A DNA stretch of 64,000 nt, taken from IMG/VR virus record IMGVR_UViG_3300011337_000669. One strand, written 5' to 3'. The stretch comes from a virus. Its lineage: Duplodnaviria; Caudoviricetes. Made by a program: the position numbers and the translations under genes. The notes beneath the pieces are model-generated. The model was not told where the DNA came from. It ran no database searches and saw nothing but the letters and a program-made list of their open reading frames with translations. Below are positions 584-58,202 of the stretch, in pieces; position 1 is the first letter of the stretch; the number at the start of each line of letters is the position of its first letter.

Positions 584-3073
584 TTACTTCTTCAAATGAT
601 TGAACCTGAAGACAATGTTTTCCTCTTCAGGTTTATCTGAGAATTTAGGCCCCAAATATTCTTGGAAGTTGTTTCTCAACTTTGTCTCGATTTGTTTTTC
701 AACCTTTTCGGGAGTAAGGTTCGGTATTTCACCTTTCAAATAATTTTCAGGTGTTGGAACTTGTTTTCCGTCTACCACTTTCAAAACGTCTTGAATATCC
801 ACGTTCACGACGTTCTTGTCGTCAATCTCTTCAACAGAAGAAATTTTGAATTTGATACTAATTTTCGGTTCCACACCATAGGACGAAGATTTTGCGGTAG
901 AAACTTTTTGTGAAATCAATGAAGGTGCCATATTTCTGAATGCCATTCGTTTAAGTTCCATCACTTTCTCGTGAGTGGCGCCTCTCTCAATCATTCCCAT
1001 TTCCTGACGAGACAATAGATAAACTTGAGACTCCAAAGTATCATTCCATCTATATGGTCGGGACGCGTTCATTTGCTTTCCTGTGGAAGAAGAATATCTA
1101 TCTGAGGTTTCATACCACTTTCCATCTTTGAAGATATAAACTGGATACCACCCATAAGACTCGACAATATATATCTTTCCATCCATTGTTGTTCTCCAAT
1201 ATCCTCTCAAGTTTGAACCTTCAAATGGAAGTTGTGCTATGGTATAAATCTTGGCATTATAGTTAGGAGTACGTTTACCTTTCATCTTTCTTGGATCGAT
1301 AAAGTTGTCCTTTGTCAATGATGAATAATCACCATCTTGTCGATAGTTCAAAAGATATAATTCCAAAATATATGGCGCAAAATCGGCCTCGATTCCAAAA
1401 TATGGTAAATAATTTTTGATTGAGGATTGTAAGTCTCTTTTGTTGTTGTAATTAGTTTTTTGAGTATTAAGAAATTTGAACAGTTTGACAATCACCTTAT
1501 TTGGCTCAAGGTCAGTATTAACCGCCTCGTTCATCATATCAAAATCCTCATCATCGTATTCATCTTGACATGTTATTTGGTGAAACCCTAATAATCCGTC
1601 TTCAAACCATTCTTTACACATCGTAATCATTAAATTAGTAGTTTTCACAACGGGCCAATCACCTGAATGAAAATATTCCCACAGTTCGTCTTGAAACAAA
1701 AAATCGTCGACTGCTTTATTTATGACAGCATCTGCATATTCAAACTCATTATCAAATTTTTCACATGGGTCTGTAAACTCTGTTTCAGCGTGATAGATAT
1801 AATCCCGCATGGTCTTCTCATTAAACCTTCTTCTCAACTTTTCCAAAAAAGCGGATTTGTTCTCAACAATTGTTTTGAATTGTGATTCGGTGACAATATA
1901 TTCTTTTTTGATTTTTGTTTCGATAATTTTTATTGGTGGGGTAATTAAGTTTGGTTCGTTCCATCCTTTTGGTGGATAATTTGTGCTTAAATAAATATCT
2001 TTCATCGGGTTCATAGAAAGAGCTGTGTTGAGTTCAGATTCTATATTTTTTTCGTCATTAAAACTAATTCTTATTAGTTTAATTCCGTTTTCCCTACAGT
2101 ATTTGTTTTTTGCCAAATCGTTAAATTTCGTTTCTTCGTACCCCTTTTCACCACCATAATTTGGTTTTGGATCGAAATGTTGTCCCCCATCGAATTCTGC
2201 GATTACGACAGTCCCATCTTCCTTAACAAAGTAAGCATCTGCTTTTAACTTATTTCTGTTCCCCTTACCTTTAGAACTGTACTCTGATAATTTTTTTTCT
2301 TTTTCTACAGTATATCCTGAAAGTTCTAACAAACGTCTCATAGTAGATTCACCTCTGCGCTCCTTCTTGTTACGACAAGCAAATTCCAAGTAGCCCTTGT
2401 ATCCTGCAGCAACTCCATTAGGATAAAGGTTTATTGGATTTTCGTGATTTTTACATTTGATATTTTTTACGAACAATCTAGTTTGATGTGATCCTTCACT
2501 ACGTGGAACTAAGTACCAATCCTGTTCTATATCTTTAATGAAAAGTGGAGAATCTGGATTTTCGGGAACATCAGGAAAAATCAGTGGAGAATCTTCAGGA
2601 ATTGTATTTAGAAAATTTTCTACCTTAGACTTAAGATCTTGAGGATACGTCTCATCATTCGACTCAGAACGACATTTTTCACAGGTGAAATCTGTTAATC
2701 GATTAACTCTAATATCCTTTAACTTTCCATGAACTACTCCTTCTTTATCTTTTTTGGTACAACTTACTCCCTTGATAATTTTATTGTGTTTTTCATCCGT
2801 GTAGTAACTAACATTTTCAAAATCATATTGAGGGAACTCAATTTTAAAATTTTCTGTGAGTTGTTTTTGGTCTTTTACTCTCAATTCAGACAATAGATTT
2901 TGCATCGTAAGACTTTGGTCGCCAGTTCGATTTCTTCTGTTACTAACCCATGTGGATATATCCTTAGAATTGGAATCATTGTAAAAATCATTTAGTGTAT
3001 TAAATCGTGAAATATATTCTTTTATTGAATCTATATCCCATTTTGATTCTCGTCCTTCCAAAATTACTTTCAT
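584..3073 (-). CDS. Multi-module protein with a central Vsr/DUF559-like PD-(D/E)xK endonuclease domain
   Basis: ADAYF...AEFDGGQH...NDLAKNKYCRENGIKLIRISF motif; CxxC upstream; start moved to MKVILE after TATTTAT (3078-3084). Confidence 0.7.
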   Translation of the reverse strand: MKVILEGRESKWDIDSIKEYISRFNTLNDFYNDSNSKDISTWVSNRRNRTGDQSLTMQNLLSELRVKDQKQLTENFKIEFPQYDFENVSYYTDEKHNKIIKGVSCTKKDKEGVVHGKLKDIRVNRLTDFTCEKCRSESNDETYPQDLKSKVENFLNTIPEDSPLIFPDVPENPDSPLFIKDIEQDWYLVPRSEGSHQTRLFVKNIKCKNHENPINLYPNGVAAGYKGYLEFACRNKKERRGESTMRRLLELSGYTVEKEKKLSEYSSKGKGNRNKLKADAYFVKEDGTVVIAEFDGGQHFDPKPNYGGEKGYEETKFNDLAKNKYCRENGIKLIRISFNDEKNIESELNTALSMNPMKDIYLSTNYPPKGWNEPNLITPPIKIIETKIKKEYIVTESQFKTIVENKSAFLEKLRRRFNEKTMRDYIYHAETEFTDPCEKFDNEFEYADAVINKAVDDFLFQDELWEYFHSGDWPVVKTTNLMITMCKEWFEDGLLGFHQITCQDEYDDEDFDMMNEAVNTDLEPNKVIVKLFKFLNTQKTNYNNKRDLQSSIKNYLPYFGIEADFAPYILELYLLNYRQDGDYSSLTKDNFIDPRKMKGKRTPNYNAKIYTIAQLPFEGSNLRGYWRTTMDGKIYIVESYGWYPVYIFKDGKWYETSDRYSSSTGKQMNASRPYRWNDTLESQVYLLSRQEMGMIERGATHEKVMELKRMAFRNMAPSLISQKVSTAKSSSYGVEPKISIKFKISSVEEIDDKNVVNVDIQDVLKVVDGKQVPTPENYLKGEIPNLTPEKVEKQIETKLRNNFQEYLGPKFSDKPEEENIVFRFNHLKK

Positions 3074-3128
3074 ATTCATAAATACTCGATAAAAACAAAA
3101 TCCCTCCATATTGGGGGATTACAAATCA

Positions 3129-3482
3129 TTAATTAGGATATTCAGTTGAAACTTTGCCATTCTTGGAAAATGTGTAATGTTTCACCAAATTATGTTCATG
3201 AAATCTCCAATAAAATCTCCCAACGAATGTTCCATGATATTCCTCCGAAATTTTCATTACTTTATTTACCAATTCTTCATCACATTGGTGGTTCCAATCT
3301 TCAATGTCTCTTCCTGAAAAAATAATGTGACCATTTTCCAATTCAGGAGTCAATAAAACTTTCTGAAGAATTAGACATTCATACGTTTCCTCATCCAACT
3401 CTTGATGAATATTTTTCAACAACTTTGAATTATCATCTGATACAAATTCCAAGTTGATGGCAAAACCAAAATTTCCTGACAT
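3129..3482 (-). CDS. Hypothetical protein
   Basis: 117-aa ORF; TATTTAT upstream at 3513-3519. Confidence 0.6.
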   Translation of the reverse strand: MSGNFGFAINLEFVSDDNSKLLKNIHQELDEETYECLILQKVLLTPELENGHIIFSGRDIEDWNHQCDEELVNKVMKISEEYHGTFVGRFYWRFHEHNLVKHYTFSKNGKVSTEYPN

Positions 3483-3545
3483 ATTTTTCTTATTTAATTT
3501 TTTTTATTGAATATAAATACTATTTTTGTTTTAATAAGTAAAACT

Positions 3546-4322
3546 ATGAATCCACGTCTCAAAAAAATCATATTCAGTAAGTTAAACGATGATTTATCCA
3601 AGGTTGAAATCATTTTGTCTGAAAATCAGTCAATTTGGTTCATCGACCGTGCAAATAAGTATTGGTACTTCGAATTGGAAAAATCAGGTAAATTATGGTG
3701 GAGGTATGAGTTTTTTACCGATTTTTTTATCCTTTTTTCTCTTAAAATCGATGAATTTCAACCACTTCTCTCTGAATGGGTGGAAGGGATACTCAATCGT
3801 GGGGTTGCATCATCCAATTTATTAAACCATGGGGATGTGCAACGGGTGGAAAGAGTACTTAATAGTGGGGTATCCTCAACAAGCCACCCAGGTGCCAATG
3901 CCTATGATCAGGTAGAGGGTATACTCAATAGTGGGGTATCTGCAACCGGAGACCTTGGCATGGAAAGAATTACCACGGTGGAAGGTATCCTCAATCATGG
4001 ATACAGAAAAGGATCTCGTAAGGTAGATGAGGTACTCAATCATAAGGTAGTTACAACAGAATACTGTGGCATTATTCCAAATTATGATTTAGAAGAAGTC
4101 CTTAATCGTGAGATTAACGAAATAGATGGAGGAGAGTTGATAGATAATATTACACTGGAAAAAGTTCTCAATCATAAGGTCGTTTCAATTCTACCTGCAA
4201 ATCTACAAAATGAATTAGTACAACAAATTCTTGTTAATGAATTAATATATGAAGTTGAATCTGCAGATCCTTTGGACACACCAGCATACGATTCGGTGGA
4301 TGAAGTATTAAAAAATAGTTAG
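3546..4322 (+). CDS. Hypothetical protein with C-terminal 22-aa tandem repeats
   Basis: ORF (start MNPRL); V(E/D)xxLNxxV core repeated about 9 times. Confidence 0.75.
   Translation: MNPRLKKIIFSKLNDDLSKVEIILSENQSIWFIDRANKYWYFELEKSGKLWWRYEFFTDFFILFSLKIDEFQPLLSEWVEGILNRGVASSNLLNHGDVQRVERVLNSGVSSTSHPGANAYDQVEGILNSGVSATGDLGMERITTVEGILNHGYRKGSRKVDEVLNHKVVTTEYCGIIPNYDLEEVLNREINEIDGGELIDNITLEKVLNHKVVSILPANLQNELVQQILVNELIYEVESADPLDTPAYDSVDEVLKNS
3780..4322 (+). repeat. In-frame tandem array, mostly 66-bp period, conserved ~27-bp core plus variable remainder
   Basis: Unit starts at 3780, 3846, 3912, 3978, 4023, 4089, 4155, 4218, 4296. Confidence 0.85.
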
Positions 4323-4347
4323 ACACTAAAACTTTCTCCGCATCCGA

Positions 4348-4677
4348 TTAAACCGCGAATGAGGTTCCACAACCGCAGGTTCTTGTCGAATTTGGATTAT
4401 TCCATTCGAATCCTTTACCATTAAGTCCATCTTTATAGTCCAACTCAGTTCCTACCAAGTATAAAAGAGACAACTTATTAATACAGACCTTAATAGAATC
4501 AAGGTCAACGATTGTATCACTTGGGTCATCCTTGTCATCAAATTTCATTTGATAAGATAATCCACTACATCCTCCTCCAATTACTCCGACTCTTAACTTA
4601 TGAGTTTCAGGGGATATACCCTCATTCTCCATTAAAATTAAAAGTTGATTTTTTGCTCGTTCAGAAACAGTTACCAT
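4348..4677 (-). CDS. iscA: A-type Fe-S cluster carrier (IscA/ErpA, HesB family)
   Basis: GGGCSGLSY and C-terminal CGCGTSF motifs; 109 aa. Confidence 0.93.
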   Translation of the reverse strand: MVTVSERAKNQLLILMENEGISPETHKLRVGVIGGGCSGLSYQMKFDDKDDPSDTIVDLDSIKVCINKLSLLYLVGTELDYKDGLNGKGFEWNNPNSTRTCGCGTSFAV

Positions 4678-4702: not shown

Positions 4703-5008
4703 TTAAAGAATACTTAATTCGGCGACTTCTACGCCAGTTAAATCATATACAAGTTTTCTTATTATTTTCTCGACTTCTTTGTCACTGAGTAAAAATAAGT
4801 CCATAATTGAACCGAAAATATTTCCATCAATACTGAAATAATACGCGTTCATTTCAGGTGAATAGTATAACAATGCAGTTTCATGCCCATTTTTGAAAAA
4901 AATTTCCAAATCGGGGATAATCTCATCACGTTTCAACTCACCTAATTTGTCGATTAAGTATTTCGTCGCAATTGTCTGTAATCTTGATTGGTTAATTTGA
5001 TATTTCAT
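4703..5008 (-). CDS. Small MKYII-leader family protein
   Basis: N-terminus MKYQINQSRL; similar to neighbours. Confidence 0.7.
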   Translation of the reverse strand: MKYQINQSRLQTIATKYLIDKLGELKRDEIIPDLEIFFKNGHETALLYYSPEMNAYYFSIDGNIFGSIMDLFLLSDKEVEKIIRKLVYDLTGVEVAELSIL

Positions 5009-5336
5009 CTAAATCGATATGATTAAAGGTTCCAAAATAAATCTTTGTTGGTGGTTCGATGCCAAGGTAGTTAGAGAACCATTTTCTGATTGACTCTTTT
5101 TTTTGTTCATAGTCAAGTGAAAACATATCTACTAATGGATCTGAAATTTTTGCTCTGTCAAAGACTATTTTATCTTCAGGTTTTGACCACATAAAAACTA
5201 TTTCCCCATCTTTCAAGGCAAAATCCCATTCTTTATATAATTTTCCACCTGAAAACGAATCCAAATTATTATAGGTATCATTCAAAAAATATGCCCCCAA
5301 GTCAATCAGTCTCGATTCTGTAATTATTACCTTCAT
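4992..5336 (-). CDS. Small MKYII-leader family protein
   Basis: N-terminus MKVIITESRL; TATTTAT 5 nt upstream of ATG. Confidence 0.75.
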   Translation of the reverse strand: MKVIITESRLIDLGAYFLNDTYNNLDSFSGGKLYKEWDFALKDGEIVFMWSKPEDKIVFDRAKISDPLVDMFSLDYEQKKESIRKWFSNYLGIEPPTKIYFGTFNHIDLDEISN

Positions 5337-10333: not shown

Positions 10334-11431
10334 TTAATATTCAAAATTTAATATTTCGTTCACGGTAATATTGGTGCTATTAAAATAATCTTGGAAGGAT
10401 ATATGTCCCCCGACCATCATTTCATATAGTTCCTTAATCATTTCCTTATTTTCATGAGTAATCACCATAACGTGATTTTCAAACAAGTATGAATCATTAT
10501 TCTCAATCAAAGCAAATTTCATATTTTTTGATATTACCCGTGGCATAACAATACAATCTTTTACTTTGGATATTTCATCAGAAACAATATATTGTTTTTT
10601 TCCCGGAATCTTGCTTCTAAGTTTACCGCCAATTTTGATTTCATTATCTCCAATATTATTTGAATATAACAATATTTTTTGGGAAGAATCATCGGTCAAT
10701 TTTTCTTTCACATTATACCACAGAATATCCCCAATTTTGCATACAAAACCTTTTTCCTTTAAGGTCATGCCATTTGAAACATTTTTGGTCAATGTATAAT
10801 AATTATTTTTCAAACTTATGAATGAATGACCCTCATCGAACTTTTTTTGCAATATCAAAAGACAAACATCGATGGAGACATCTTTGAATGGAATCTGATG
10901 GATAATATCCACAACGGCATATTCATCATAGATTTTTTTCCGAATGTCATTATACCAAGGACTTGATAAAATGGTTGAAGGCAAAAGATACGCCAACACC
11001 CCACCGTCCTTTAACAACTCAAAAGATTTGTCCATAAACAAATGAACCAAATTAATTCTCCCCCTCTTTTCAAAATTAAATCGTTCACGTAATTTACTCT
11101 TTTCATCTTCATCATAATAAGAATAAACCAATTCAATATATGGAGGATTTCCAATAATAAAATCATATTGTTTATCAAAATCAGTTAAAAGAAAATCACC
11201 CAATAAACAATTGGCACCATCAATAGGTGAGAACACCTCAGGGTCAATCTCAAAACAATCAATACTTAAATCGGATTTTTTTAATTCAGACACAAAATTC
11301 CCCGAACCAAAACTTGGCTCCAAAACCCATCCCGATAAATCAAATCTTTTTCTTAATTCTTCAATAGTGAAATTACACTCATTCACGTCAGTATTAAACT
11401 GACCATACTTAGCTCTTTTTGACTTTCCCAT
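10334..11431 (-). CDS. N6-adenine DNA methyltransferase (TaqI/Eco57I-like, gamma order)
   Basis: Motif I VLEPSFGSGNF; motif IV IIGNPPY; C-terminal TRD-like region. Confidence 0.9.
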   Translation of the reverse strand: MGKSKRAKYGQFNTDVNECNFTIEELRKRFDLSGWVLEPSFGSGNFVSELKKSDLSIDCFEIDPEVFSPIDGANCLLGDFLLTDFDKQYDFIIGNPPYIELVYSYYDEDEKSKLRERFNFEKRGRINLVHLFMDKSFELLKDGGVLAYLLPSTILSSPWYNDIRKKIYDEYAVVDIIHQIPFKDVSIDVCLLILQKKFDEGHSFISLKNNYYTLTKNVSNGMTLKEKGFVCKIGDILWYNVKEKLTDDSSQKILLYSNNIGDNEIKIGGKLRSKIPGKKQYIVSDEISKVKDCIVMPRVISKNMKFALIENNDSYLFENHVMVITHENKEMIKELYEMMVGGHISFQDYFNSTNITVNEILNFEY

Positions 11432-11488
11432 ACAGTTATAAATATAATTCATTTATCGTGGAAAATAAAATAATTAGACACAAATATC

Positions 11489-18749: not shown

Positions 18750-19679
18750 CTACCCAACATATTTTTTAGCACCACGTGTATATAACGTCACAAACTTCTC
18801 TAACAATTCCTTGTCACTATTTATTAAATTACGAAGTCCGTCTTCTAATTCATTCATCTGTGGAACATGGGTATCAGCATAATCCATAGGTATTACACTT
18901 ACAATCCCCGAGTATATCGCTCTATCTAAGTATGTTTGAAAGTCAGGCATGAATGATGGCATGTACCAATCTGCAGCTAGAATAACTGCATCGATAAGTT
19001 CGGGCATTCTTCTTTTGAGATATGGATTTACTGATTCATCTATCTTTAGTTTGTTTCTCTTTTCGTAGATGGACTTCATCTTCTTTAACAATGTTTCATT
19101 ACTAAGTATGAGTTTTTTCATCATGTCTTCCAAATACTCCAACTTTGTGGTATCAGAATCAAAATAATCTTCAGGTAGTTCAGTTACAATTCCCGAATAT
19201 ATCGATTGTTCCAAAAATGTATCAAAAGTCATGGTGTGCTTGTTGGGATTATAGTATGACGCCGATTCAAAAACCGAATCAATCAATTCAGGTAATCTCC
19301 TTCTAATAGATATTGGAGAATCCCCTTCATTCATTATTTCTAAATCGAGTTTACTAATGAAGATTTGTTTTAGTGTCTGAAGTAATTCCTTATCATTGTT
19401 GATTGTTTTTAATAAGACTTTTTCAATTTCACCTAACTCTTCGCTGGTCAAATCATAATCTTCAATAACATTTCTTATTGAATAAAATATTGTCCTATCT
19501 AAGAAATTCTTGAAATAATTCTCATCGAATTCTCTGTCACTTCTAACAAATATTTCGTTAGCGGTATCAACAACTGCATTAAGAAACTCAGGAAGTCTCC
19601 TTCTTAAATAAGGATTAAGAAAACCTTCATTAATCCCCATGACCTCCTTGATTCTATCTATGTCTTCTTGTAAATTCAT
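18750..19679 (-). CDS. MNLQEDI.RIKEVMG-leader protein with 3 tandem domain copies
   Basis: RRR(L/M)PE.. motif three times; start moved to MNLQED. Confidence 0.8.
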   Translation of the reverse strand: MNLQEDIDRIKEVMGINEGFLNPYLRRRLPEFLNAVVDTANEIFVRSDREFDENYFKNFLDRTIFYSIRNVIEDYDLTSEELGEIEKVLLKTINNDKELLQTLKQIFISKLDLEIMNEGDSPISIRRRLPELIDSVFESASYYNPNKHTMTFDTFLEQSIYSGIVTELPEDYFDSDTTKLEYLEDMMKKLILSNETLLKKMKSIYEKRNKLKIDESVNPYLKRRMPELIDAVILAADWYMPSFMPDFQTYLDRAIYSGIVSVIPMDYADTHVPQMNELEDGLRNLINSDKELLEKFVTLYTRGAKKYVG

Positions 19680-19683
19680 TTGG

Positions 19684-20325
19684 TTAAATGTTGGAGATAT
19701 AGTGATCGTAAATCTCATCGTATATTGAATGATTCTTTACTAACTCCATTATCTTTGGCTCTAGCACTTCACTTATTTTTAACTGTTCTTCGTGTTCCCC
19801 TCCTATTTCATCGGCAACAAAATCTCTTGTTGCTGAGAATATAACCCTTTCTAAAAAATCATCGAAGTTGTTGAATCTACGTGGTGATAACCAGTCATAT
19901 GAAGCTTCGATATAATCAAGTAAAGCATCCATTCTTCTTTTAACAAGAAGTAATTCTTTAGATTCATTTATGTCTTCAGATTCATCTCTTGTTGGATACT
20001 TTTTCGAATCGTAATGTTCTTTGATTTTTCTGAATAACCTTTTATCGTTACGTAATGATACAAAGGCAAATGGGAGTAACTCCTCTATTTCATCTCTTTT
20101 CACAAGAATATCATTAAATTCGAAGAAACCATCTATTGAATGTCTCAATACTAACTTAAGATAGTCTTCAAAACTATCTATGTCTTCTATGAATTCATCC
20201 ATCCACTCGAAAGAAGTAAGGAGAACATCAAGAAATTCATCTTGTCTTCTCTTAAAAAACATATCACGGCTTTCGTTAATCCCCATGACTTCCTTAATCC
20301 TATTTATGTCTTCACGCAAATTCAT
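19684..20325 (-). CDS. MNLREDINRIKEVMG-leader protein with 2 tandem domain copies
   Basis: KRR.D motif twice; TATTTAT upstream. Confidence 0.8.
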   Translation of the reverse strand: MNLREDINRIKEVMGINESRDMFFKRRQDEFLDVLLTSFEWMDEFIEDIDSFEDYLKLVLRHSIDGFFEFNDILVKRDEIEELLPFAFVSLRNDKRLFRKIKEHYDSKKYPTRDESEDINESKELLLVKRRMDALLDYIEASYDWLSPRRFNNFDDFLERVIFSATRDFVADEIGGEHEEQLKISEVLEPKIMELVKNHSIYDEIYDHYISNI

Positions 20326-35030: not shown

Positions 35031-35054
35031 ATAAACCCCAAATATGGGGTTTAT
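35031..35054. terminator. Intrinsic terminator
   Basis: ATAAACCCCA-AATA-TGGGGTTTAT. Confidence 0.8.
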
Positions 35055-35914
35055 TTATTTTTTTCAAAATCTAATATTTGTTGTCGTTTACTTTCAACAA
35101 ATAAGTTAACTCGTTTTCTTGCAACTTCACAATAATTCGAACTGAGTTCGATTCCAATCCATCTGCGTCCTAACGTTTCTGCCGAGGCCAAACTAGTTCC
35201 GCTGCCTGTGAATGGGTCCATAATTATATCATTCTTGTAGGTAAGAATTTTTATCGCTTTCGTTGGGATGTCCATTGAAAAAGTTGCCTTTGTTTGTTGT
35301 CTTGTATCCGCAAAATATTCCCATTGACCATATACCAAACTCATAAAGTCCTTCTTATCTTCATCTTGATACATGGTTTTTTTCTTTATTGTTCCGTCTT
35401 CTTGTTCAACATCAACAACTTCCCCAACCCACTGAGGTTCCCCTTTAACTTTCTTAATCCTATCTTTCTTGTAAGCAAGGATTACACACTCTTTTGGATT
35501 GTAAATATATGGACTGGATGGACTCATCCAAGAACCCCAAGCGGTGGTCTTACTTCTATGTGGCGCATTCTCATCAAGGTCAACAAGTCCATAGAATTTG
35601 AACCCAACCTTTTTCATTACAGACCAAAATTCAGACATAAATAATACTCTACCACCTCTATCTTGGACATTGATTTCATAAGGAATATTAATCGCAACTC
35701 TACCATCTTCTTTCAATATTCTGAACGCCTGAGTTAACCAATTCTCAGTGAATTGCCAGTAATCATCCATAGATTGATTGTCATCGTGAGTATCATAGTC
35801 AATACCGACGTTATAAGGTGGAGAGGTAACAATTAAATCAATTATTGACTCAGGTAATTTACCCATCTCAACAACACAATCTCCATTTATAATCCTATTT
35901 GTTTCTAACATCAT
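35051..35914 (-). CDS. N4-cytosine/N6-adenine DNA methyltransferase (beta class)
   Basis: VTSPPY before DPFTGSGT. Confidence 0.92.
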   Translation of the reverse strand: MMLETNRIINGDCVVEMGKLPESIIDLIVTSPPYNVGIDYDTHDDNQSMDDYWQFTENWLTQAFRILKEDGRVAINIPYEINVQDRGGRVLFMSEFWSVMKKVGFKFYGLVDLDENAPHRSKTTAWGSWMSPSSPYIYNPKECVILAYKKDRIKKVKGEPQWVGEVVDVEQEDGTIKKKTMYQDEDKKDFMSLVYGQWEYFADTRQQTKATFSMDIPTKAIKILTYKNDIIMDPFTGSGTSLASAETLGRRWIGIELSSNYCEVARKRVNLFVESKRQQILDFEKNK

Positions 35915-57404: not shown

Positions 57405-58202
57405 TTACAAATAATCGAACAGAGAAGCCGTTTCGTTTCTTAATTTTCTCAAAGCCTTTTCTTTAATCTGTCTTACTCGTTCCTTAGTCAAATCAAAGTC
57501 ACTACCGATGTCCTCAAGAGTTCTGGTTGAACCAGATAACCCAAAATAATCTTCGATGATAACCTTTTCCCTTTCATCCAAAACATTTAACATGTTCAAA
57601 AGTTTTTCTTTCAGGGTGTCATCTGTAGATAAATTTTTATCCGCCGAATCTGCATTAGGGTTAACCAAAATGTCCAACAGTGTATCCCCTTCTTCATTGA
57701 GGGGATTATCCAAATTAATTGTATAAGGTAAACTCACCATTTTATCGGGTAATGCGACTCCAGCTTTTTCAAGTTCCTTCTTAGCTTTATGAAGTTCTTG
57801 AACAACGTTTACTGGTAGACGAATAGTACGAGCATTCTCATTCAATGATTGCAAGATAGATTGTCTAACCCACCATACCGCATATGAAATAAATCTAAGT
57901 CTTTTCGTCCAATCGAAATTCTCAATCGCCTTCATTAGACCAAGATTACCCTCAGCAATCAAGTCACTCAAATCTAAACCTTGATTTTGATATTGTTTTG
58001 ACACTGTAATCACAAAACGTAAGTTTCCTACCAACAATTCTTTTTGGATTTCTTTCTTCTCTTCTTCTGTGATAACACCTGACAACATTCTCTCAGCTAG
58101 CTCACGCTCCCTCTCAGGAGTCATGACTCTAATCTTTCTGATGTCTTTCAGATAATGACTAATCTCTTCTTGATTGATTGGAATTGATGATTTTTCTTTC
58201 AT
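57405..58202 (-). CDS. Sigma-70 family factor, short Bacteroidota RpoD-like
   Basis: YLKDI; NLRFV..V.KQYQNQGL.L.DLI.EGNLGL; RFISYAVWWVRQSILQ; TKERVRQIKEKALRKLR. Confidence 0.95.
   Translation of the reverse strand: MKEKSSIPINQEEISHYLKDIRKIRVMTPERERELAERMLSGVITEEEKKEIQKELLVGNLRFVITVSKQYQNQGLDLSDLIAEGNLGLMKAIENFDWTKRLRFISYAVWWVRQSILQSLNENARTIRLPVNVVQELHKAKKELEKAGVALPDKMVSLPYTINLDNPLNEEGDTLLDILVNPNADSADKNLSTDDTLKEKLLNMLNVLDEREKVIIEDYFGLSGSTRTLEDIGSDFDLTKERVRQIKEKALRKLRNETASLFDYL

What the first reader, a model, noticed from the sequence alone, without database searches (positions are those of the whole stretch)
3780..4322. In-frame repeat/variable-spacer array at a protein C-terminus
Seen: nine units, mostly exactly 66 bp, each with a conserved core (GT(G/A)GA.....T.CT.AAT..T...GT; V(E/D)xxLNxxV) and an unrelated ~12-aa variable part. 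The frame is preserved even in the odd-sized units (45, 63, 78 bp). Units 1-4 are most alike and distal units are more decayed, a polarity reminiscent of sequential acquisition. Unit 1 is the natural end of a domain whose WxE...V tail also ends the small MKYII-type proteins. Inference: a C-terminal tail diversification device that adds or swaps variable tails by recombination at the conserved core.
Basis: partly seen in the sequence, partly recalled or inferred. Interest (0 to 1): 0.72.

Follow-up and report, generated by a model that had tools for sequence, protein, structure and literature searches.

The report
Translated CRISPR-type array in phage gene
The tail of this small phage gene is an old, partly decayed CRISPR-style repeat-spacer array (36-base repeat + 30-base insert = 22 codons) that is read in frame as protein; in sister phages the same array is pristine and gains unrelated 30-base inserts next to the gene's N-terminal domain, a way of changing a protein that I found in no paper searched.

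Summary
In detail: nine in-frame units at 3779-4319, of which six are 66 nt. The unit is a 36-nt repeat plus a 30-nt spacer (12 + 10 codons).

In relatives, repeats identical at 36/36 flank spacers no more alike than chance. One relative has five identical repeats. Arrays differ by whole units, almost only at the end next to the N-terminal domain, and the distal units keep their order. Public contigs show an exact 66-nt skip and a swapped unit.

A DNA pattern for two such repeats found 59 arrays in IMG/VR. All 59 lie in one ORF with the same N-domain. None of 130 spacers has a stop in the coding frame; 34-82 have one in each other frame. Spacers are more GC-rich than the phages. dN/dS is below 1.

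A pattern from the repeat's ends and geometry retrieved Bacteroidota arrays; all eight adjacent large ORFs tested matched Cas13b. The window's own repeats are decayed, lack the Cas13b hairpin, and match only at the termini.

I found no protospacer and no cas gene, so foreign origin and host Cas1-Cas2 insertion are inferred.

This scan has already reported the same phenomenon on other DNA, including 46 kb upstream in this genome.

The parts
3512..3519 (+). TATAAATA, a T4-late-promoter-like box 27 nt upstream of the ATG
   Evidence: Read from the sequence. It is conserved at the same distance (-34) in 10 of 20 homologous loci. The motif is not enriched in the window: 14 matches against 8.7 +/- 3.1 expected. 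This is weak evidence of function.
3546..4322 (+). Whole gene: N-domain plus in-frame array, 258 aa plus stop
   Evidence: The identical protein occurs on two further contigs from other samples. There are 438 homologues, with lengths stepping by 22 aa.
3546..3779 (+). N-terminal domain (aa 1-78), a virus-specific small alpha/beta domain of unknown function
   Evidence: AF2 model with pLDDT 93 and pTM 0.81. No PDB relative: Foldseek finds nothing at E <= 0.001 and the best VIA Z is 4.9. ESM Atlas gives three clusters of hypothetical Uroviricota proteins at TM 0.84-0.86. There are 344 cluster representatives. dN/dS is 0.17.
3779..3814 (+). Repeat 1 (VEGILNRGVASS). Its first half completes helix 3 of the N-domain. 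Its 3' end is decayed (…GTTGCATCATC).
   Evidence: 29/36 identical to the pristine head repeat.
3815..3844 (+). Spacer 1 (NLLNHGDVQR), GC 0.40
   Evidence: Shared, with 2 changes, with distant homologue L015, so it is an old unit. Contigs of run X13 skip exactly 66 nt here.
3845..3880 (+). Repeat 2
   Evidence: 29/36.
3881..3910 (+). Spacer 2 (SHPGANAYDQ), GC 0.53
   Evidence: The commonest head spacer: 41 of the 77 homologue clusters that share the anchor spacer.
3911..3946 (+). Repeat 3, the best-preserved repeat
   Evidence: 33/36.
3947..3976 (+). Spacer 3 (GDLGMERITT), GC 0.50. This is the 'anchor' spacer shared by 77 of 120 homologue clusters.
3977..4021 (+). Unit 4, 45 nt: repeat remnant with no spacer (VEGILNHGYRKGSRK). 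The basic motif is nearly invariant.
4022..4087 (+). Unit 5: decayed repeat plus old spacer (EYCGIIPNYD), GC 0.30
   Evidence: Spacer dN/dS is 0.10 across 10 variants.
4088..4153 (+). Unit 6: decayed repeat plus old spacer (DGGELIDNIT), GC 0.33
4154..4216 (+). Unit 7, 63 nt: decayed repeat plus a 27-nt spacer
   Evidence: Contigs in X10 and X11 carry a variant 66 nt longer across 4138-4166.
4217..4294 (+). Unit 8, 78 nt: barely recognisable repeat (13/36) plus 42 nt
4295..4322 (+). Terminal partial repeat (VDEVLKNS) and stop. Most relatives run on for another 20-30 aa.

Best explanation
Shown:
- The last two thirds of gene 3546-4322 are a repeat-spacer array with CRISPR geometry: 36-nt repeat plus 30-nt spacer, exactly 22 codons.
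- The array is fused in frame to a small virus-specific N-terminal domain.
- Across the gene family, arrays grow at the end next to the N-domain. Each gain is an unrelated 30-nt piece plus an exact new copy of the repeat.
- Arrays shrink by deletion of whole units.
- Every array seen is open in the coding frame.
- Older units drift, lose repeat identity, fall toward the phage's low GC content, and evolve under purifying selection as ordinary protein sequence.
- The window's copy is such an aged array: three recognisable head units and six decayed ones.

Inferred:
- The inserts are foreign (non-phage) DNA.
- They are put in during infection by a CRISPR integrase acting in trans on the phage array. 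The likely enzyme is a host Cas1-Cas2, as the type II-C enzyme does for Cas1-less type VI-B arrays of Bacteroidota.
- Phages whose new insert closes the frame are lost.

What the variable peptide tail does is unknown. My guess is a surface or partner-binding tail whose distal conserved part must still be made.
For: **Geometry**
- The conservation profile drops at column 36 of 66.
- Relative L170 has five identical 36-nt repeats with unique 30-nt spacers, then a slightly decayed and a strongly decayed repeat.

**Insertion rather than duplication**
- Repeats are 36/36 identical while the flanked spacers share 4-13 of 30 positions (mean of all pairs 8.3) in L001, L004, L006 and L016. L150 and L153 show the same.
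- Pairwise identity among 130 spacers is bimodal: at most 19, or at least 24, of 30.

**Polarity**
- 77 homologue clusters share the anchor spacer. Upstream of it there are 0-3 whole units, carrying 11 unrelated spacers in 15 architectures. Downstream there are only 2 classes.
- L012 and L013 share spacer 2 and differ in spacer 1.
- The order NLL < SHPG < ETMS < anchor is kept through deletions.

**Public contigs**
- An exact 66-nt skip.
- Units 1-2 replaced by one unit with a different 30-nt spacer.
- A variant 66 nt longer.

**Link to the gene**
- A DNA-only pattern of two repeats found 59 arrays in IMG/VR. All 59 lie in one ORF with the N-domain, E <= 1e-28.

**Translation under selection**
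- Stops occur in 0 of 130 spacers in the coding frame, against 34-82 of 130 in each other frame.
- dN/dS is 0.17 for the N-domain, 0.28 for repeats and 0.45 for old spacers.

**Foreign composition**
- Young spacers have GC 0.449 (n = 23) and 0.412 (n = 130), against 0.33 and 0.32 for the phage DNA. P < 5e-5.
- In the window, head spacers are 0.40-0.53 GC and distal ones 0.30-0.33.

**Kinship with CRISPR**
- A pattern built from the repeat's 3' end, its 5' G.TG and the 36/30 geometry retrieved at least 120 loci. Nearly all are Bacteroidota arrays, including those of Bergeyella zoohelcum and Flavobacterium columnare.
- All 8 large adjacent ORFs tested match Cas13b NF038190, 7 above the cut-off.
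- The repeat of homologue L004 matches type VI-B repeats at 17 of 24 unconstrained positions; no shuffle out of 2000 reached this.
- The variable end lies on the GTTG side of the repeat, as in type VI-B arrays.

**Precedent**
- The type VI-B array of F. columnare is filled in trans by type II-C Cas1 and takes many host-genome spacers (PMC8092290).
Against: - **No protospacer found.** Exact scans of 1 spacer in genome contigs and 5 in viral contigs gave nothing beyond the spacer's own array. BLAST of array DNA against about 1,950 Bacteroidota genomes gave only chance-level hits. Foreign origin therefore rests on composition alone.
- **No Cas1, Cas13b or other cas gene.** None in the window's ORFs tested or in three partial relatives' records. 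The integrase is inferred and the host is unknown.
- **Weak repeat similarity for the window type.** Beyond the termini, window-type repeats are not significantly like type VI-B repeats: 11-12 of 24 free positions, P 0.19-0.57.
- **No crRNA hairpin.** Phage repeats give z +1 to -2, against -2.6 to -4.6 for true type VI-B repeats.
- **No leader-like signal.** There is no extra synonymous-site conservation before the junction.
- **The window's own array shows no recent gain.** The identical protein is found in three samples.
- **Expression is untested.**
Confidence: 0.62

Rival explanations
1. A phage-encoded, non-Cas insertion or templated-synthesis system builds the arrays as a dedicated tail-diversification device. 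The CRISPR-like geometry would then be ancestral or convergent, and the host's adaptation machinery plays no part.
For: - The arrays are strictly tied to one phage gene family: 59 of 59.
- Every array keeps the reading frame: 0 of 130 stops.
- The repeats have lost the crRNA hairpin.
- Window-type repeats resemble type VI-B repeats only at their ends.
- No host link or protospacer was found.
Against: - No candidate enzyme (recombinase, reverse transcriptase or integrase) lies near the gene in the window or in relatives.
- The exact 36 + 30 ruler, duplication of the first repeat and leader-end polarity are what Cas1-Cas2 does.
- The L004-type repeat is significantly similar to Cas13b repeats.
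Confidence: 0.13
2. The array works mainly as RNA, and its translation is secondary. It could be a mimic of host Cas13b repeats (an RNA anti-CRISPR), or a phage-borne guide array that uses the host's Cas13b.
For: - The geometry and termini are those of type VI-B arrays.
- The mRNA carries the repeats in crRNA sense, downstream of a promoter-like box.
- Phage repeat mimics are known (PMC10651486).
Against: - The repeats lack the type VI-B hairpin: z +1 to -2 against -2.6 to -4.6.
- Differences between repeats fall mostly at synonymous sites, and dN/dS is 0.28-0.45.
- 0 of 130 stops in the coding frame shows selection on the protein.
- The window's repeats are too decayed to be processed uniformly.
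Confidence: 0.1
3. An ordinary protein tandem repeat. A 22-residue helix-loop unit expands and contracts by unequal crossing-over, and its loops diverge quickly.
For: - The period is a whole number of codons.
- The repeat half is predicted helical and the spacer half coil, at low confidence.
- Whole-unit indels occur.
- The window's own copy looks just like this.
Against: - Duplication copies the loop along with the core. Yet repeats identical at 36/36, synonymous sites included, flank spacers at chance identity.
- Spacer identity is bimodal, with no intermediates.
- Spacer GC is foreign to the phage.
- Variation is polar.
Confidence: 0.06
4. A multi-core ribosomal peptide (RiPP-like) precursor. 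Conserved recognition sequences would flank variable core peptides that are cut out and modified.
For: - The layout is a leader-like N-domain followed by repeated conserved and variable segments.
- The AYDQ and AYDS ends of two units recalled cyanobactin recognition sites. This is from memory only and was not tested.
Against: - No protease, cyclase, YcaO or radical-SAM gene lies nearby in the window or in relatives.
- The 'leader' is a folded 80-residue domain.
- The AYD motif occurs in only two units.
- This reading does not explain the identical DNA repeats.
Confidence: 0.03

Closest known systems
Type VI-B (Cas13b) CRISPR arrays of Bacteroidota, which lack cas1/cas2 and are filled in trans by type II-C Cas1-Cas2 (F. 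columnare; Hoikkala et al. 2021, PMC8092290)
   Same: - 36-nt repeat and 30-nt spacer.
- G.TG…GGGTA….CAAC repeat ends.
- Growth at the GTTG-side end.
- A decayed terminal repeat.
- No integrase gene of its own.
- The type VI-B array readily takes non-viral (host) DNA.
   Different: - The phage array lies inside a phage ORF and is translated.
- It has lost the repeat hairpin.
- It has no Cas13b next to it.
- Its 'leader' is a coding domain.
- Window-type repeats match only at the termini.
- No protospacers were found.
Cas-less or orphan CRISPR arrays of huge phages and virus-borne mini-CRISPR arrays (Medvedeva et al. 2019, PMC6858448; Al-Shayeb et al. 2020, cited from my own knowledge and from earlier notes, not read here)
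   Same: - Carried on a virus.
- Short.
- No adaptation genes.
- Presumed to depend on host machinery.
   Different: - The known arrays are non-coding guide arrays, with spacers against rival viruses or host genes.
- Here the array is the coding 3' part of a gene, with 0 of 130 in-frame stops.
- Five young spacers scanned in IMG/VR matched no other viral contig.
RNA anti-CRISPRs (Racrs): phage-encoded solitary repeat units that mimic host repeats (Camara-Wilpert et al. 2023, PMC10651486)
   Same: Phage copies of host-type CRISPR repeats.
   Different: - Racrs are small non-coding RNAs that keep the repeat structure.
- These repeats have lost the structure, are translated, and carry spacers.
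Diversity-generating retroelements, the established way for phages to vary the C-terminus of a protein (from my own knowledge)
   Same: A phage protein whose C-terminal part is made variable by a DNA-level mechanism.
   Different: - DGRs rewrite existing codons through a reverse transcriptase and a template repeat.
- Here whole 10-residue cassettes are inserted between repeats, and no reverse transcriptase or template repeat is present.

Membership tests
CRISPR array (generic) | Direct repeats of fixed length alternating with unique spacers of fixed length | tested here: met
   36 + 30 nt. In the window, six of the nine units are 66 nt.
CRISPR array (generic) | Repeats within an array (nearly) identical | tested here: not met
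   In the window, R1-R3 share 27-28 of 36 positions with each other and the distal repeats 18-26 of 36. The feature is met in relatives: L170 has five identical repeats, and L001, L004, L006 and L016 show 36/36. The window's copy is therefore a decayed member.
CRISPR array (generic) | Polar growth: one variable end, a conserved old end, and a degenerate terminal repeat | tested here: met
CRISPR array (generic) | Spacers are copies of foreign DNA (protospacers exist) | tested here: inconclusive
   No match in exact scans or in about 1,950 sampled Bacteroidota genomes. These samples cover only a small part of the candidate hosts. Spacer composition is foreign to the phage.
CRISPR array (generic) | Non-coding; transcribed and cut into guide RNAs | tested here: not met
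   The array lies in an ORF with dN/dS below 1 and 0 of 130 in-frame stops.
CRISPR array (generic) | cas genes nearby or elsewhere in the genome | tested here: not met
   None in the 64-kb window (39 ORFs scanned; tblastn). No Cas1 or Cas13b in three partial relatives' records. The window's whole genome is not held.
Type VI-B (Cas13b) array | 36-nt repeat with GTTG…CAAC ends and about 30-nt spacers | tested here: met
   The window type reads GGTG…GGGGTATCTGCAAC. A pattern built from these features returned type VI-B arrays.
Type VI-B (Cas13b) array | Overall repeat sequence similarity | tested here: inconclusive
   Window-type repeats: 11-12 of 24 free positions, P 0.19-0.57. The L004-type repeat of a homologous gene: 17 of 24, with no shuffle out of 2000 reaching it.
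Type VI-B (Cas13b) array | Repeat RNA folds into the conserved hairpin bound by Cas13b | tested here: not met
   z +1.0 to -2.0 for phage repeats, against -2.6 to -4.6 for five true type VI-B repeats.
Type VI-B (Cas13b) array | Variable (leader) end on the GTTG side of the repeat | tested here: met
   The phage arrays vary at the 5' (GGTG) side. Type VI-B polarity is taken from PMC8092290 and from the cas13b-array order in L076.
Protein tandem repeat made by duplication | Variable parts of neighbouring units are related by descent | tested here: not met
   Spacers are at chance identity between identical repeats.
Diversity-generating retroelement | Reverse transcriptase and a template repeat near the variable region | tested here: not met
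   No reverse transcriptase among the ORFs scanned. No second copy of the region in the window.

The most novel reading that the evidence does not exclude
CRISPR spacer integration is used, or tolerated and then selected, as a protein-writing device. Each captured 30-bp piece of foreign DNA becomes a new 10-residue cassette, framed by a 12-residue repeat-encoded helix, in a phage protein. Selection keeps only in-frame, stop-free captures. This gives large lake phages a heritable, modular and fast-changing protein tail. The window's gene is a fossil of that process.
Probability: 0.4. Interest if true: 0.95.

Novelty: new variant of a known kind. Interest (0 to 1): 0.8.

Why it matters
CRISPR arrays are known only as non-coding stores of guide RNAs. 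Here an array of the same build forms the coding tail of a phage gene family, and there is strong evidence that the reading frame is under selection.

If the insertions are made by a CRISPR integrase, this would be:
- the first natural case of spacer capture writing peptide sequence, and
- a new route of protein diversification in viruses, alongside diversity-generating retroelements and cassette recombination.

It would also show that phage DNA can serve as a substrate for host adaptation machinery. It offers a natural template for recording DNA into a translated product.

A practical point: such genes will be called CRISPR arrays by array finders and hypothetical proteins by gene callers, and both calls are incomplete.

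Tried and rejected
**Family and repeat searches**
- Pfam and PHROGs on the protein: no family.
- Rfam on 3400-4500: no CRISPR-DR or other family.
- Tandem Repeats Finder: nothing.

**Spacers against phage DNA**
- Spacers against the window and all locus flanks: only 11-16-nt chance matches.
- L001's array against its own 162-kb record and two relatives: no protospacer.

**Protospacer hunts**
- Exact scans: L016 spacer 2 in genome contigs, 0 hits. Five spacers in viral contigs, nothing but the array itself.
- BLAST of L006 head spacers against 401 Flavobacteriales genomes.
- BLAST of L170 against 401 Flavobacteriales, 401 Chitinophagales, 381 Cytophagales and 41 genomes of one family.
- BLAST of three L207 arrays against 331 genomes of the family of G005, a Crocinitomicaceae MAG.
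- Three leads were followed and dropped as chance:
  - a 24/30 hit in a PF18989 protein; only 4 homologues exist and none has the spacer's peptide;
  - a 25/30 hit in a hemN-like gene, with no better match in its family;
  - an AT-rich hit at a gene junction.
- rRNA as the spacer source: no.
- Bacterial spacers from 120 type VI-B loci against the phage DNA: none.
- These samples cover a small fraction of possible hosts, so the negative result is weak.

**Other dead ends**
- Leader-like synonymous constraint before the junction: none.
- Homologue in cultured phages (INPHARED, tblastn): none.
- AF2 of the full protein: pLDDT 40.6, not used for fold search.
- N-domain fold searches gave no function: PDB Foldseek nothing at E <= 0.001; VIA best Z 4.9; AFDB only two uncharacterised proteins.
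- RiPP-precursor idea: dropped, because there are no maturation genes and the AYD motif is in two units only.

**Tools unavailable**
- The whole genome of the window is not held.
- The 320-kb relative's record is not held.
Full report
**1. What is there**

The + strand ORF 3546-4322 encodes 258 aa. After 78 residues the sequence becomes periodic. Units start at 3780, 3846, 3912, 3978, 4023, 4089, 4155, 4218 and 4296, with lengths of 66, 66, 66, 45, 66, 66, 63, 78 and 24 nt.

- The repeat finder sees 5-6 copies at 66-nt spacing.
- Tandem Repeats Finder sees nothing, because only half of each unit is conserved.
- A degenerate repeat pattern matches twice in the window and never in 100 shuffles.
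- There is only one such array in the 64-kb window.

**2. The unit is 36 + 30**

I aligned 41 distinct 66-nt units from the window and 24 related loci. Columns 1-35 are conserved and columns 37-65 are not.

The last column is nearly always G in young units. The DNA repeat therefore most likely starts one base before the codon boundary, at 3779 in the window. The consensus is GGTGGARGGNRTACTCAATNGTGGGGTATCTNCAAC.

In protein terms the unit is 12 repeat residues (VEGILNRGVSAT) plus 10 spacer residues.

**3. Relatives show insertion, not duplication**

The protein has 438 homologues, with lengths stepping by 22 aa. At DNA level:

- L001, L004, L006 and L016 carry neighbouring repeats identical at 36/36, while the spacers between them share 4-13 of 30 bases. 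The mean over all pairs is 8.3.
- L150 equals L006 plus one extra unit.
- L153 has a new head unit in front of a conserved spacer, with R1 = R2.
- A more distant family member, L170, has five identical 36-nt repeats with unique 30-nt spacers, followed by a slightly decayed and a strongly decayed repeat.

Duplication followed by divergence cannot keep synonymous sites of the repeat identical while randomising the adjacent 30 bases.

**4. Polarity**

Of 120 homologue clusters, 77 share the spacer that encodes GDLGMERIxT, which is spacer 3 of the window.

- Upstream of it there are 0-3 whole units, carrying 11 unrelated spacers in 15 architectures.
- Directly downstream there are only two classes.
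- The order NLL… < SHPG… < ETMS… < anchor is kept. The window lacks ETMS, P0007 lacks NLL and P0065 lacks SHPG. This is the pattern left by internal deletions.
- L012 and L013 share spacer 2 but differ in spacer 1.

Logan contigs of public runs show three variants:

- an exact 66-nt skip of unit 1 (X13);
- replacement of units 1-2 by one unit with another 30-nt spacer (X16);
- a form 66 nt longer further down (X10, X11).

The window's own protein is identical in three samples. This copy is stable.

**5. It is translated and under selection**

Pooled Nei-Gojobori dN/dS values are 0.17 for the N-domain, 0.28 for repeats and 0.45 for shared old spacers. Individual spacer classes range from 0.05 to 0.92.

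A DNA-only pattern of two repeats 30 nt apart found 35 stretches in IMG/VR, holding 59 arrays.

- All 59 lie in the same ORF as an N-domain, at E <= 1e-28.
- Among 130 unique spacers, none has a stop in the coding frame. Between 34 and 82 have one in each of the other five frames.

The frame has to stay open through the array. This implies that the distal part of the protein matters.

**6. Spacers look foreign**

- Young spacers have GC 0.449 (n = 23) and 0.412 (n = 130), against 0.33 and 0.32 for the phage DNA around them.
- Stop-free phage 30-mers reach only 0.346, giving P < 5e-5.
- In the window, head spacers are 0.40-0.53 GC and distal ones 0.30-0.33. This fits gradual drift toward the phage's own composition.

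I could not find a source sequence. Exact scans and BLAST against about 1,950 sampled Bacteroidota genomes gave only chance-level hits. Three leads were followed and dropped. Foreign origin is therefore inferred, not shown.

**7. Relation to CRISPR**

I built a pattern from the repeat's 3' end (GGGTA….CAAC), its 5' G.TG and the 36/30 spacing.

- It retrieved at least 120 loci in species genomes. Nearly all are Bacteroidota CRISPR arrays, including those of Bergeyella zoohelcum ATCC 43767, Flavobacterium columnare and F. covae.
- All eight large neighbouring ORFs tested match the Cas13b model NF038190, seven of them above its cut-off.

Beyond the positions fixed by the pattern, the picture is mixed:

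- The L004-type repeat, from a homologous gene at 41% identity, matches type VI-B repeats at 17 of 24 positions. No shuffle out of 2000 reached this.
- Window-type repeats match at only 11-12 of 24, with P 0.19-0.57.

True type VI-B repeats fold into a strong hairpin (z -2.6 to -4.6). The phage repeats do not (z +1 to -2).

The variable end lies on the GTTG side, as in type VI-B arrays.

Hoikkala et al. (PMC8092290) showed that the Cas1-less type VI-B array of F. columnare is filled in trans by the type II-C Cas1, and that it takes many host-genome spacers. That is the nearest mechanistic precedent.

No cas gene, reverse transcriptase or recombinase was found:

- not in the 39 window ORFs scanned;
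- not by tblastn with ORFs of the type VI-B loci;
- not in three partial relatives' records, for Cas1 and Cas13b.

**8. The protein**

The N-domain alone models at pLDDT 93 and pTM 0.81. It has helix 3-16, four strands, helix 54-63 and helix 68-83. The last helix contains W78-V79-E80-G-I-L-N84, so repeat 1 begins inside the domain's last helix.

A paralogue with the same domain ending in WVES, followed by an unrelated C-domain, has no array.

The fold has no informative relative:

- no PDB match;
- two uncharacterised AFDB clusters;
- three ESM Atlas clusters of hypothetical Uroviricota proteins at TM 0.84-0.86.

The family has 344 representatives at 50% clustering. Of the best 150, 77 show 22-aa periodic tails, each with its own repeat variant. 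Function is unknown.

A TATAAATA box 27 nt upstream of the ATG is conserved in 10 of 20 homologous loci, but the motif is not enriched in the window.

**9. Reading**

The window's array is an aged member of a family of translated CRISPR-type arrays.

Shown:
- the geometry;
- insertion-type growth at the head;
- loss of whole units;
- the exclusive fusion to one gene family;
- selection for an open frame;
- decay toward ordinary coding sequence.

Inferred:
- foreign origin of the spacers;
- insertion by a host Cas1-Cas2 acting in trans;
- any benefit of the variable tail.

Rivals are scored in their own section. They are a phage-own insertion device, an RNA-level decoy or guide function, a plain tandem repeat, and a RiPP-like precursor.

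**10. Literature and earlier notes**

Four full-text searches found no description of a translated CRISPR array.

The scan's own earlier notes report the same phenomenon in at least ten places. One set is three tandem genes 46.5 kb upstream in this genome. Some of those notes claim exact bacterial protospacers.

I used those notes as leads.
- Reproduced for this gene family: the geometry, the growth at the domain-proximal end, and partly the type VI-B resemblance.
- Not reproduced for this gene family: a protospacer match.

Noticed in passing
window 3512-3519: A TATAAATA box (T4 late-promoter consensus, from my own knowledge) lies 27 nt upstream of the ATG. It sits inside a conserved TTGAATATAAATA context found in 10 of 20 homologous loci. 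The other loci carry a different conserved upstream block (ATTGTTATATTGAAAAAAAAACAATATATTTG).
   Followed up: partly
window 3977-4021: The 45-nt unit encodes HGYRKGSRK. This basic motif is nearly invariant across 46 aligned homologues, although it sits where a spacer has been lost. It may be a functional site of the tail.
   Followed up: no
L047, L049-L052, L079, L087, L091, L092, L121 (genome contigs): MAGs labelled Thermoguttaceae, Planctomycetaceae or Planctomycetia carry 36/30 arrays. Next to one of them (L047) lies a Cas13b match (NF038190, 393 bits). So type VI-B-like systems occur outside Bacteroidota. The 3' half of their repeat (TCGTGGGGTATGTGCAAC) is 17/18 identical to the window-type phage repeat.
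   Followed up: partly
L165-L167 (IMG/VR records of relatives): A 156-aa paralogue has the same N-domain ending in WVES, followed by an unrelated C-terminal domain and no array. This shows that the domain is a module that accepts different tails.
   Followed up: partly
L199, L201, L204, L205, L207, L213, L183 (IMG/VR): Two to four array-bearing paralogues sit in tandem within 2-3 kb. Each has its own set of spacers.
   Followed up: partly
L004 unit 2 and L014 unit 1: Two spacers from distant arrays encode similar peptides (LCNDHPIFLL and FELNHPIFAL) and share the block CATCCNATTTT. This could be the same source gene, selection on the peptide, or chance.
   Followed up: no
window 4703-5008 and 4992-5336 (-): Two small MK…-type proteins align in register with the C-terminal part of the N-domain (FSL…W.E..L), but only weakly (hhalign probability 9-12%). 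They may be very distant members of the same domain family.
   Followed up: partly
window 57405-58202 (-), 48362-49279 (-), 18750-19718 (-): The phage encodes three notable proteins: a full sigma-70-type factor (regions 1.2, 2 and 4), a complete DnaJ, and a protein with a terpene-synthase metal-binding domain (PF03936, E 1.8e-6).
   Followed up: no
window 10334-11452, 35051-35914, 47003-47842 (-): Three different DNA methyltransferases lie within one 64-kb stretch: Eco57I/N6_Mtase type, N6_N4_Mtase, and D12 class.
   Followed up: no
window 584-3109 (-): An 841-aa ORF carries a homing-endonuclease (HNH-type) core at about residues 240-365. It also has an internal …KKEYIVTESQFKTI… stretch resembling the MKYIITESQ N-termini of many small proteins in this genome.
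   Followed up: no
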